This document shows, one piece after another, positions 3,439 to 9,976 of a stretch of DNA of 64,000 bases (position 1 is its first letter; each line of letters starts with the position of its first letter). Origin of the DNA: Octopus vulgaris. Taxonomy: Eukaryota. The stretch lies in assembly GCA_951406725.2 (NCBI GenBank), contig OX597818.1, forward strand, positions 126,852,001-126,916,000, given 5' to 3'. The notes beneath the pieces were generated by a model, which was not told where the DNA came from, made no database searches, and saw only the letters and a list, made by a program, of their open reading frames with translations. Made by a program: the position numbers and the translations under genes.

Positions 3439-3537
3439 ATTGCATCTACGTCTAGTTGGCCATGGCCAACCACTCTGCTCATGGCGAGAAGAGCTTTTAA
3501 TTCGGCTATCCTCTGGTCGGAGGATGTCCGTTTAACG
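3439..3537 (-). CDS. Neuropeptide precursor cassette exon C (PXXXamide / invertebrate PTH-like): VKR-TSSDQRIAELKALLAMSRVVGHGQLDVDA(I/M)
   Basis: Acceptor ttttacttcag|, donor AT|gtaggt; 99 bp, phase 2-2, open frame. Dibasic KR is followed by the SDQRxAELxALLA...GHGQLD motif, which I recall from PXXXamide/iPTH peptides (no search run). Confidence 0.85.
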
Positions 3538-3930
3538 CTGAAGTAAAATCAGAAATTTCATTTAAGAATGACTCCAAAGAAATACACACTGACGAACCTC
3601 GCAGAAACAGACTCACTCCCTCTCACACACACACACACACACACACACACACACACACACACACAAACGCACACGCACATGCACACACATACACGCAATC
3701 ACAGATACACACGCATGTGTATGTATATACATATATACAATATATTTAATATTAAACCTATATAACAATACATATGTAATATGTGTTATTACATATTATA
3801 TATATATATGTATACACACGCACACACATATGCACAAATTTACATCCATTCACGCTCATACACAGGAACACGCATACATACATACATACACACACAAAAC
3901 ACACACACACACACACACACACATATATAT

Positions 3931-4762
3931 ACAGGGTGCAGTGAATAAATTGTCTAAATTACGAAAAAATGAAAGTAACACTGACATCTCATTTTAATAG
4001 ATATATTTACCAAAATTACATAGACTTTCTTGACATACTAAAGAATAGATTATTTAACAAAATCGCCATTGGCTTCAACCATGACCCCCAGACAACTTCG
4101 GAATCTCCTGCAACTCTCCTGCACGATCACCTTTTTTAAGTTGGTGAATGCTGCCATGATCCTTCCCTTTAGTTCATCTTTGGTGTTACAAGGAGTTTTG
4201 TTGGACTCTCGGTCAAATGCACCCCACACGTAATAATCAAGAGGGTTGTAGTCTGGGAAGTTATGTGGCCAGATGTTTGGGGTGATGGGGTCGCAGTAAT
4301 TGTCCTGCTTATATGGCATGGTGTAGTATCATGTTGCCAGACATATGGTCTCCTAGATGTCACCCTCTTCACCCAGGGCAGCACTACCTCCTCCAGGCAC
4401 TTAATGTAGGCCTTTCGTGTTGAGTCTGAGGCCGCGTGGGATGATGAATGGAGGCGTAAGCTCGCCGTCACTAGCGATCACTCCAAACACCATGATGTTG
4501 ACTAGATGTTTGATTTTTATCACTCTCAGTACATGTCCTCAGATTGACACCCAAACACTCTGAAATGTTCATATTGGAGCTTCTGGTGCAAATACCAAGC
4601 AGTACATCATGTCGTTTCAAAATTTCAGAGAGTGTGAATTGCGTCATAGTGCTTTTTTTCCCACAGTCGGTGCCCAAAGGATCCTACTATACTGTGTAGT
4701 CGATATGTGAATGCTCGAAATTAAAACTATACAGTAGCGATAATTTACTCATCGTACCCTCT
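3931..4762 (-). mobile_element. Tc1/mariner-superfamily transposon, internally deleted and frameshifted
   Basis: Transposase pieces YIKCLEEVVLPWVKRVTSRRPYVWQHDTTPCH and ITPNIWPHNFPDYNPLDYYVWG. Degenerate TIRs cagggtgcagtgaataaatt (~3932) and its reverse complement near 4743-4762. Confidence 0.85.
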
Positions 4763-7447
4763 GTGTGTGTATATACACACACAATACACGCACGCACACA
4801 CGCGCACACACACACACACACACACACAAACACACACACACATACACACACACACACACGCACATATGCACAAATACTATCCCCTCACACAAACCAATAT
4901 ACCATATAAATTTATGCTGAAATAATTGAAAGTATGATATTAACATGTTATAAACAATTGCAATAAATCAAATCATTATATTTTGACAGGCATATAATAC
5001 AACAATACAGAAGAATGAATATTTTCAAAAACAATGGTTTTGGTGTCATCATTTTACCACAATTTTTATAATCGAATTTGGTTTTCATGTTAATGATTCT
5101 TCTTTCACCTAACAAGAAAATATAGAGAAGTAGGGCAATAAAACAATATAATATCTGGCTCATATTTAAGTACAGTATATTAGTGGTATCTCAGTGCGTA
5201 TCTTAGTGCGGTAGTTCGTTCATTCGTTTGTTTGTTCGACGCAACATCTTTATTCTGCTGTGTGATGTAGAAAACAATACAATGATAGGAATATGATTAG
5301 GTCACAGAAATTGAATATACGAGTTAATTAGATGAGATTTAAACAAAGAGAAGAAACAGAAAACATTTGGGAAATATCATTTCGGAGTGGCTAGAAGCAG
5401 CAATATAGTAAACAGGAACCAGTTCGTATTATATACATCACTGTAAGCATGTAAAGCGCTCCCTGTCCACACAGACAAATAAACAAAAATGCCCCAAACA
5501 TACACTTCAAGTACATGCATGTAAATGGGTAAGCATATGTATATGTATATACATACACACTCACACACACATACACACATCCACACACACATTCAATATA
5601 TCGTTGTAGCTGTGATTGTGTTAGCCCATACCATAACAGTGTCGGAAGTGCAGTGAGATTAACTCAACTTCAGGAGATTTAACAGCACAAAGCAAACGAC
5701 TTAATAAGGTCTATTTTTTAATGGCTAATATTTTTCATGGTAAATCACCTACGCATAAGATGATGTAATTAAATATTTTATAAACAAACTTTATTTTAAC
5801 TTTCATTATACATAATACATACATGTATGTATGTATGTATGTATGTATGTATGTATGTATGTATGTATATATATATATATATATATATATATATATATAT
5901 ATATATATATATATATATATATATATATATACATATATATACATATATATATATATATATATATATAAAAAAAAAAAAACACACACACACACACATATAC
6001 AAATACATATATACATATACATGTATATATATACTACCCTATTTAAGTAGATTACATGAGACAAGATCCTGCGTGTACAAGGGAAGTATAATAAAAATAA
6101 ATATAAGTGTGTAAATATGTTTTTAATACCTACAGTAACTGCAACATTATCTATAATTACAGTAATAATACTCAGTTAATGATAAATCAGATGCAAAACT
6201 AAGCTACACAACTGTGTGTTTGTGTGTTTATGTGTGTGTCCGTGCCCCTGTGTCTGTGTATAAGTATGTGCATATGACAGTTATATATATATATATAATA
6301 TATATATATATATATATATATATATATATATATAAAACTATAGACACATATCTATATATATTTATAGAACTATAGACACACACACATACACACACTCACA
6401 TATATATATACATATATATATATATATATACATATATATATATATATATATATATATATATATATATATATATATATATATATATATATATATATATATA
6501 TATATATATATATATATATATATATATGTATACATATGTATGTATGTATATGTATGTGTATGTGCGTATAGGTAGATAGATTAACAATTACGAGCTGATA
6601 ATATTTTCAAATGCACACACACACACACACACAGATACTCTGCCCACGCCTCTATTCATTGACCCCCGCTTTACGTTTTCTGTCATGTTGAAGAAATGTG
6701 ACATAGGAAAGAGAATGTCGATATAAGTAGAAAAATAATATGAAAATAAGACAAAAAGAACACGACAATATTGAGAACAACAAACGAGAAAAGAACTGAA
6801 ACGGAAACATAAAAAAAAAACGAGAGACCCCCAACAGCAACAGAACATTTAAACAGCAACAATAACAAGCAGAAAGAAGAATAAAGATAAAACGGATTGT
6901 AAGTAATAGCAAAATTGAAAATATAAGTGATTGAAATAAGAGTAAAGAAAATAATATATTGATTACAACAAAAACGATAATAATAAATATAAATAGCAGC
7001 TGAACAATAGAAGGCAGTACAAACTTTAGATATAGCAACATATAGCTACGTACAGATATGCATATACACACTCACGCATACATACAAATACACGCACACA
7101 CACATACAAACATATATAAACACATACACACATATCATTTGATGTACACTGTACTACAATAAGAGCTAATAGGAGTTTCAGGCTCTGAGCTCATGGTTTT
7201 GTTCTATTTGAAAAATATGACAAGCCACGGACTCAGAGCATAAAGGGTAGTTTGGAGACACAAGGTACGTTATAAAAACCTATCTAACAACGTGTCTTCA
7301 TGGCAAGAAACTATAAATGGTTCTTATTTTAATACAATGTATATTAAAAGATATTTATATTTATATTTCACACCGGATGGAATATATGTTTGTTGATTTG
7401 TAACAGAACAGTAAACTATATACATATTTTTATATATATATATATAT

Positions 7448-8780: not shown

Positions 8781-8900
8781 CTGGCGTGTACATCGACTAC
8801 CCCACAGGCAACCTCGACACAACCCGGTGGTACAATGCCACCAAGTGCTAACCATGCTTGGTATTCAGCTGTTTTAATATCGCCTGTCTGGCGCTTCGAT
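8781..8900 (-). CDS. Neuropeptide precursor cassette exon B: SKR-QTGDIKTAEYQAWLALGGIVPPGCVEVACGVVDVHA(S/R)
   Basis: Acceptor ttttacctgtttacag|, donor AG|gtacag; 120 bp, phase 2-2. KR is followed by Gln, a C-x4-C pair is present, and it aligns with exons A and C. It lies inside track ORF 8729..8977. Confidence 0.85.
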
Positions 8901-9862
8901 CTGTAAACAGGTAAAACAACACACAAATGGACATCAACAATAATGACAGAACAATTTGACACGTCGATAAGAAACAAACGTTATAAATACGAGAAGGAAT
9001 GCGAAGGAAAATTGCACATATCAACGTAAAAGGTAATGACAAAATAAAATCAATACTGCTTTTTGTAATAGCATAACAATTATAATGTGACTAACTATGT
9101 GAAATGTGGGGAACGGGTATCATTGGATAAAGATAACTATAGAAGAGGCAATGGAGTTTTACTGGAAGTGGAGGTGGTTGGTAGGGTAACACGATATTCC
9201 TTTAACAAATGGTCAAAATATTTACTTAAATATTACTATATACACGTGCATATGTGTGTATGTGTGCGTAAAATGGCCATATATATACTTATACATTAAT
9301 ATCTGTGTATATGCATATACTATTTATATGCATTAAATGATCTATGGAAATTGAACTCCGAGTCTGCTGTAATGTGTATAGCCGTGTTAACTACGACACA
9401 AGAGTGATAAATTATTTAGCTACCTAAATCAGAAGTTTAACCAAGCCATATTAGCGGCTTATGAAGTGTGAACCTCAGCCCACACAGTATGAAGGTAGAG
9501 TACTATGTATAATATACATATATAAGCGTGTGTGTGTGTGTGTTTGTGTGTGTGTGTGTGTGTGTGTGTGTGTGTGTGTGTGTGTGTGTGTGTGTGTGTG
9601 TGTGTGTGTGTGTGTGTGTGTGTGTGTGTGTGCAATATTTATGAATGAAATGGTACAAAAATTTGAACTGTAAAAAATTGAATCTATCATTGCTACGTTG
9701 TTAATTATTGGTATAACACAAAACACGAAAAAAAATATTAACAATGTAATGCATTGACCATTTACTTAAGGATTTGAGGCGGGTAAGTCAGAAAGGGCTT
9801 TGGTTTAGGTCTTGACTAGGTAAAAGGATAGTGTTTGGGGGTTGAACTAGAGCTTACTATAC

Positions 9863-9976
9863 CTCTTTTCAATATCAACTAACCCACACGCTACCTGGGT
9901 GCAGGTAATGTTTCTGGACAATGCCATCAGTGCCCGATACTCAGCCGCTCGCATATCAGCTAGCTGTCGTTTAAAT
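9863..9976 (-). CDS. Neuropeptide precursor cassette exon A: FKR-QLADMRAAEYRALMALSRNITCTQVACGLVDIEK(S/R)
   Basis: Acceptor cccctgcttacag|, donor AG|gtatag; 114 bp, phase 2-2. KR is followed by Gln, a C-x4-C pair is present, and homology to exon B is clear (D..AEY.A..AL ... VACG.VD). Confidence 0.87.

What the first reader, a model, noticed from the sequence alone, without database searches (positions are those of the whole stretch)
3439..9976. The splice junction itself sets each peptide's C-terminus and amidation
Cassettes end in the split codons AG|, AG| and AT|. Spliced in series they give ...DIEK-R-SKR (A trimmed, not amidated) and ...DVHA-S-VKR (B as a free acid). Spliced to a terminal exon starting Y-GGN-basic they give ...DIEKS-amide, ...DVHAS-amide and ...DVDAI-amide. 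Any subset of the symmetric exons keeps the frame, and only the last included peptide would be amidated. This would be a combinatorial switch on bioactivity. The terminal exon was searched for in 1-3438 and not found.
Basis: inference. Interest (0 to 1): 0.7.

Follow-up and report, generated by a model that had tools for sequence, protein, structure and literature searches.

The report
Splice-chosen amidation in octopus hormone gene
This octopus gene for a parathyroid-hormone-like neuropeptide holds three interchangeable peptide exons, and whichever is spliced onto a shared last coding exon gains the glycine predicted to amidate it, an arrangement that is real but already reported for the matching oyster gene.

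Summary
Confirmed, and a known kind. Exons A (9976-9863), B (8900-8781) and C (3537-3439) are symmetric phase-2 cassettes of an Octopus vulgaris QSamide/PXXXamide (insect-PTH-like) precursor gene. Its signal exon is at 17142-17054. The predicted last coding exon lies 8.75 kb left of the window and starts C-GGC-AAG-AAA-AAA-CGT (x-GKKKR). Contigs of 4 public runs show B-to-T in 2 and C-to-T in 2, A-to-T in none; their lengths fit either/or cassette use. Database models add S-A-T, S-A-C-T and S-B-C-T in other octopods. Among 67 relatives the last cassette has the glycine in 61 of 65, inner cassettes in 1 of 34. The oyster orthologue was published with the same amide and '-like' splice forms (PMC8398477). 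Full combinatorics and any effect on bioactivity are untested. Extra: an inverted paralogue 1.18 Mb away has 2.1% intron but 9.9% amino-acid-changing peptide-exon divergence, and a Val-to-Gly change that would amidate inner peptides too.

The parts
17054..17142 (-). Exon S: starts at ATG, encodes signal peptide and short spacer (MTRHILILSIVGMVLVSLVNARYIPEEEL), ends in split codon AG|gtaagc (phase 2). An acceptor sits right before the ATG, so a 5' UTR exon lies further upstream (not located).
   Evidence: same N-terminus in P0002, P0004, P0006
9863..9976 (-). Cassette A, 114 nt, phase 2-2: FKR then QLADMR...CTQVACGLVDIEK + AG|; QSamide type, two Cys
   Evidence: used in O. sinensis models P0002 and P0003; no RNA junction seen in 4 runs
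8781..8900 (-). Cassette B, 120 nt, phase 2-2: SKR then QTGDIK...CVEVACGVVDVHA + AG|; QSamide type, two Cys
   Evidence: B-to-T junction in 2 of 4 runs; model P0006 ends in exactly S-B-T
3439..3537 (-). Cassette C, 99 nt, phase 2-2: VKR then TSSDQRIAEL...GHGQLDVDA + AT|; PXXXamide/iPTH clade, but Val in place of the naming Pro
   Evidence: C-to-T junction in 2 of 4 runs
1..3438 (-). Window part of the 12,191-nt intron from C to exon T. T itself lies OUTSIDE the window, at G000:C5:126843247-126843130 (L005:1247-1130): 118 nt, first base C completes Ser or Ile, then GKKKR, tail peptide, stop 15 nt before the next donor. A 3' UTR exon U starts further on at G000:C5:126840177.

Best explanation
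The gene is an octopus QSamide/PXXXamide (insect-PTH-like) precursor in which the cassette spliced onto shared exon T receives its last residue and a Gly-Lys-Lys-Lys-Arg signal, so that cassette's peptide is predicted to be amidated, while any cassette left upstream would be released as a free acid. Shown: anatomy, exon T, B-to-T and C-to-T junctions. Inferred: the main use is a choice of one hormone per mRNA (S-B-T, S-C-T, S-A-T), with two-cassette forms (S-A-C-T, S-B-C-T) also made. The rule 'last cassette is amidated' likely arose automatically when an exon that carries the front cleavage site but not the amidation signal was duplicated in tandem; it would ensure one amidated ligand per transcript without strict mutual exclusion. 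The amidated products likely act on a class B PTH-type receptor, as insect iPTH does.
For: Exon T found as predicted. B-to-T in runs X2, X5 and C-to-T in X1, X5 (4 of 24 listed runs laid, 4 studies), loose ends identical to this gene's exon ends. Contig lengths 180=30+120+30, 179=30+120+29 and 159=30+99+30 mean each cassette is one unbranched arm from an upstream exon to T. Models: S-B-T for this gene (P0006), S-A-C-T and S-A-T in O. sinensis, S-B-C-T in O. bimaculoides and Argonauta. Gly before the dibasic site in 61 of 65 last cassettes and 1 of 34 inner ones among 67 proteins (rows are related, not independent). Same-tail pairs with different cassettes in snail, scallop, mussel, oyster and an unnamed cephalopod-like pair. 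Oyster paper reports four such transcripts and peptides by MS. Beetle iPTH activates PTH receptors.
Against: No A junction and no serial junction was seen in the run contigs; only exon T was laid, so the exon upstream of B and C (S or A) is not known. Serial forms rest on database gene models whose read support I did not see. Contigs drop rare variants and a filter leaves records out. Amidation and processing are predictions from motifs. No lophotrochozoan receptor assay had been done according to PMC8557429.
Confidence: 0.6

Rival explanations
1. Strict either/or gene: one cassette per mRNA; serial forms are splicing noise or gene-model artefacts and free-acid peptides have no role.
For: Unbranched B and C arms in X2 and X5; one junction type in X1 (C) and, among this gene's cassettes, in X2 (B). 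Single-cassette S-Q-T and S-P-T pair P0057/P0010 from Logan assemblies.
Against: RefSeq models in O. sinensis and O. bimaculoides, an Argonauta model and chiton, abalone, clam, scallop models are serial (25 of 67 proteins); oyster serial transcripts were reported. The A-B intron (962 nt) is long enough for serial splicing; no inverted repeat other than AT microsatellite appeared among the 25 longest of 3812 pairs.
Confidence: 0.17
2. Full combinatorial switch: all subsets are used in a regulated way, and free-acid forms are distinct ligands, partial agonists or antagonists released with the amide.
For: 8 of 8 subsets keep the frame. Inner cassettes lack Gly in 32 of 34 cases (1 Gly, 1 without a site) though one base change can give it, as in the paralogue. 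Oyster paper says all mature peptides but one were detected by MS (Figure 4 not seen).
Against: No A-B or A-B-C support beyond model P0001; non-Gly is the default state of the exon start, so its persistence needs no selection; the paralogue lost the rule while its peptides look selected. No activity data.
Confidence: 0.13
3. A is a near-constant first cassette (S-A-B-T or S-A-C-T), so A is normally a free acid and the choice is only between B and C.
For: The 30 upstream letters of the B and C contigs were not shown and could be A; P0002 is S-A-C-T.
Against: P0006 (this gene), P0004 and P0005 join S directly to B; P0003 joins A to T.
Confidence: 0.1

Closest known systems
Crassostrea gigas QSamide3/PXXXamide gene (PMC8398477, section 2.5.6 and supplement alignment)
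   Same: One gene, shared signal region and shared Gly-basic tail, several peptide cassettes; transcripts QSamide3, PYKIamide, PYKI-like/PALIamide, QS3-like/PYKIamide, in which only the last peptide is the amide. Oyster proteins are 44-52% identical to the octopus precursor.
   Different: Oyster has one QS and two PXXX cassettes, octopus two QS and one PXXX-type. The passages seen do not spell out the split codon or call it an amidation switch; Figure 5 (gene map) was not seen.
Insect PTH (iPTH, Tribolium; PMC7224569) and tick iPTH (bioRxiv 10.64898/2026.06.22.733765)
   Same: Signal peptide, dibasic site, mature peptide with Ser-Asp near the start, Gly-basic-basic end; cassette C has these.
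   Different: Single peptide per precursor; C lacks the Pro at -4; no receptor test exists here for the octopus peptides.
QSGamide/QSamide of annelids and molluscs (PMC8557429 passages; P0047 named QSGamide in nr)
   Same: Gln start, two Cys, CGxxD...S-G-KKKR end; A and B group with them.
   Different: Often single-peptide precursors; here cassettes beside a PXXX-type exon.
Calcitonin/CGRP and ITP/ITPL alternative splicing (recalled, no call)
   Same: Shared signal exon, splice choice of peptide; in ITP the forms differ in amidation.
   Different: There each alternative exon carries its own end; here the amidation signal is on a shared downstream exon and cassettes can stack.

Membership tests
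QSamide/QSGamide | Signal peptide then dibasic site then Gln-starting peptide | tested here: met
   S exon; FKR-Q and SKR-Q
QSamide/QSGamide | Two Cys with CGxxD and Ser-Gly-basic end | tested here: met
   A and B joined to T end IEKS-GKKKR and VHAS-GKKKR; matches the supplement alignment
QSamide/QSGamide | Sequence grouping with named members | tested here: met
   A and B inside the QS clade, split from PXXX at 100/98 on 37 columns (2 rows there were mislabelled by my pattern and some were duplicates); P0047, named QSGamide, was found by the octopus protein alone at E 8.8e-4; oyster QSamide3 relatives at E 1e-16 or better
PXXXamide / iPTH | Ser-Asp near N-terminus of mature peptide | tested here: met
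   TSSDQR in C; feature from PMC7224569
PXXXamide / iPTH | Pro at -4 | tested here: not met
   C ends DVDAI; Pro also absent in O. bimaculoides, O. sinensis, Argonauta. PMC7224569 calls it only mildly conserved. C is filed as an orthologue-like peptide, not a literal PXXXamide
PXXXamide / iPTH | Gly-basic-basic amidation signal | tested here: met
   C-to-T junction gives I-GKKKR
PXXXamide / iPTH | Activates a PTH-type class B receptor | not testable with these tools
   needs a receptor assay; unproven in lophotrochozoans per PMC8557429
Oyster-type spliced QS/PXXX gene | Cassettes skipped so that different peptides meet the shared tail | tested here: met
   B-to-T and C-to-T
Oyster-type spliced QS/PXXX gene | Serial transcripts with a non-amidated '-like' peptide | tested here: inconclusive
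   models in 3 other octopods; not seen in the run contigs
Any Pfam family | Pfam-A match | tested here: not met
   0 families for 3 of 3 proteins at E up to 10

The most novel reading that the evidence does not exclude
A 'last cassette wins' amidation switch kept from annelids to octopods lets tissues co-release an amidated agonist with a free-acid sister peptide of different activity; and O. vulgaris carries a young, positively selected duplicate whose Val-to-Gly change switches this off at exon C and amidates the upstream peptide too, a natural mutant of the switch and possibly a new hormone set.
Probability: 0.2. Interest if true: 0.7.

Novelty: new member of a known kind. Interest (0 to 1): 0.4.

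Why it matters
It names an unannotated octopus gene ('hypothetical protein') as the PTH-like neuropeptide gene and gives exact candidate ligands (three amides, their free acids, and the paralogue's set) for molluscan PTH-type receptors, whose pairing was unproven in the paper read. It makes explicit a codon-level rule, amidation donated by the next exon, that explains the oyster '-like' peptides and can be tested by comparing amide and acid forms. The fast-evolving duplicate offers a built-in comparison.

Tried and rejected
No RNA holder listed in the run search (no evidence either way). A-to-T junctions and any paralogue junction or paralogue variant of T: none in the 4 runs laid; runs were picked with this gene's words, contigs drop rare forms and a filter leaves holes, so this is not evidence of absence. 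Junctions at the cassettes' 5' ends and between cassettes were not examined in reads, which leaves the upstream exon open. A fourth exon joined to T in run X2 (depth 7) was tested as a possible extra cassette and rejected: absent from window and 26 loci, it maps 78-79 Mb away. Further cassettes: none in 164 kb by pattern and only 4 and 2 matches genome-wide for A/B and C. Docking-site-type inverted repeats: only AT microsatellite among the 25 longest shown; not a sensitive test. Pfam: nothing. The first cassette count double-counted anchors and was redone. No structure or complex prediction was run: it would not decide splicing or amidation. Earlier scan findings: none. Paper searches listed no paper whose title or abstract start concerns the octopus gene or junction-set amidation; the library lacks most subscription papers, and the cuttlefish paper that named PXXXamide was not seen.

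Full report
Setting. The window is G000:C5:126852001-126916000 of a 2.8-Gb genome. The contig length, 147,548,901, equals that of the contig carrying two Octopus vulgaris models found in the protein search, so the organism is O. vulgaris.

Observation. A signal-peptide exon S at 17142-17054 also ends in phase 2. In the window plus 100 kb to its left, a scan for an acceptor followed by N-GGN-basic-basic gave 2 hits; the one with a pyrimidine tract is 8.75 kb left of the window (G000:C5:126843247) and reads C|GGC AAG AAA AAA CGT, i.e. Ser or Ile then GKKKR and a tail ending KTE-stop. Conceptual splicing keeps the frame in 8 of 8 subsets and gives IEKS-G, VHAS-G or VDAI-G for whichever cassette is last, and IE|KR, IEKSV|KR or VHASV|KR for inner ones.

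RNA evidence. I laid 4 of the 24 listed runs (4 studies; kind 'RNA?' is the tool's guess) on exon T only. Loose ends at T's first base are the end of C in X1 and X5 and the end of B in X2 and X5; they match this gene copy exactly. None shows A. X13 stops at T's start with no loose end there. The contig lengths are telling: 180 and 179 for B, 159 for C, equal to 30 upstream letters plus the whole cassette plus 29-30 letters of T. With 31-letter words (inferred from the tool's text) that is one unbranched arm per cassette, so B-to-C was absent or pruned in those runs. The 30 upstream letters were not printed: they could be S or A. X1 and X13 also show T spliced to a 3' UTR exon 2.95 kb on. Contig depths do not measure expression and holes prove nothing.

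Database models. P0006 ends in exactly this gene's S-B-T; O. sinensis has S-A-C-T and, at a second locus, S-A-T; O. bimaculoides S-B-C-T and S-T; Argonauta S-B-C-T. A-B-C in series occurs only in P0001, a model of the paralogue without S and T. Their read support was not seen.

Family. Relatives were found in chiton, bivalves, gastropods and annelids. A and B fall with QSamides, C with PXXXamides (100/98, 37 columns). C lacks the naming Pro, as do the other octopods. Of 67 proteins, 65 had a recognisable cassette and 25 had more than one. Gly precedes the dibasic site in 61 of 65 last cassettes (the other 4 look like truncated or odd models) and in 1 of 34 inner ones (32 non-Gly, 1 without a site). 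These rows are related and partly redundant.

Prior work. PMC8398477 (passages, section 2.5.6, supplement part 4 of 7; figures not seen) describes the oyster QSamide3/PXXXamide gene spliced into QSamide3, PYKIamide, PYKI-like/PALIamide and QS3-like/PYKIamide, with peptides found by MS. That is the same logic; the text seen does not discuss the split codon or amidation as a switch. PMC7224569 (passages) shows beetle iPTH activates PTH receptors (EC50 63 and 413 nM) and that the amidation signal is strictly conserved; the passages seen hold no amide-versus-acid test. PMC8557429 (passages) links QSGamide with iPTH and says the pairing is unproven in lophotrochozoans. PMC6425005 (one passage) and the tick preprint (one passage; its supplements not seen) add nothing on splicing. 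Nine searches listed no paper on the octopus gene.

Mechanism. Shown: exon anatomy, exon T, two skipping junctions. Inferred: convertase cleavage, carboxypeptidase trimming and amidation at Gly (established prohormone processing, recalled); one amidated hormone per mRNA; origin by tandem duplication of an exon that carries the front cleavage site but not the amide signal, which yields the rule with no extra machinery. Whether free acids matter is open: some class B ligands need the amide and PTH fragments do not (recalled).

Paralogue. A second full copy lies inverted 1.18 Mb away. Introns differ at 300 of 14,112 filtered sites (2.1%), but the three peptide exons differ at about 23.4 of 235.6 amino-acid-changing sites (9.9%) and 2.6 of 88.4 silent sites (2.9%); binomial P 2e-9 against the intron rate, overstated because several changes in C are clustered, and 0.049 against silent sites. 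S has no amino-acid change within its whole codons and T has one. Flanks of C differ by only 1-3.5%. The window's copy matches the O. bimaculoides B and the O. sinensis A and C, so the changes fall on the paralogue. Its C exon starts GGT AAA CGG instead of GTT AAA CGG, so an upstream A or B would be amidated even in series: the single exception. Against simple recent selection, its C groups with Argonauta's (100/87, long branches), so an old exon amid converted flanks is possible. It lacks 2.4 kb that holds the 3' UTR acceptor, and its expression was not seen.

Verdict. Real, correctly predicted, and a new member of a kind already published in oyster. The strong 'combinatorial bioactivity switch' remains a hypothesis. 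Interest 0.4.

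Noticed in passing
G000:C5:125670568-125694051 (+), loci L015-L017: Inverted paralogue of the whole gene inside a segmental duplication with collinear matches over roughly 100 kb; introns 2.1% diverged, peptide exons 9.9% at amino-acid-changing sites; C starts Gly-Lys-Arg.
   Followed up: partly
window 13199-16297 versus G000:C5:125671930-125675028: A 3.1-kb tract is 99.8% identical between the two copies (2 mismatches), against 93-97% elsewhere: likely recent gene conversion.
   Followed up: no
L005/L006, about G000:C5:126839415-126841813: This 2.4 kb, with the acceptor of the 3' UTR exon, is missing from the paralogue, which keeps part of the AATAAA-bearing stretch beyond it.
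   Followed up: partly
L027:1499-1529 (G000:C5:47.55 Mb) joined to exon T: One contig in run X2 (depth 7) joins a canonical donor of another gene 78-79 Mb away to the acceptor of T: rare trans-splicing or an artefact; single run.
   Followed up: partly
exon T, L005:1130-1247: The stop codon lies 15 nt before a 3' UTR intron, close enough to escape nonsense-mediated decay by the usual 50-nt rule (recalled).
   Followed up: no
P0022: An O. bimaculoides model joins S straight to T, a peptide-less precursor, and is labelled 'corticotropin-releasing factor domain-containing' in UniRef; Pfam gave no family for the three octopus proteins scanned.
   Followed up: no
window about 480-1400 and about 4000-4760, minus strand: By eye, degenerate mobile-element-like remnants (a GIY-YIG-like stretch and a mariner/Tc1-like stretch; labels recalled, not tested) in the introns.
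   Followed up: no
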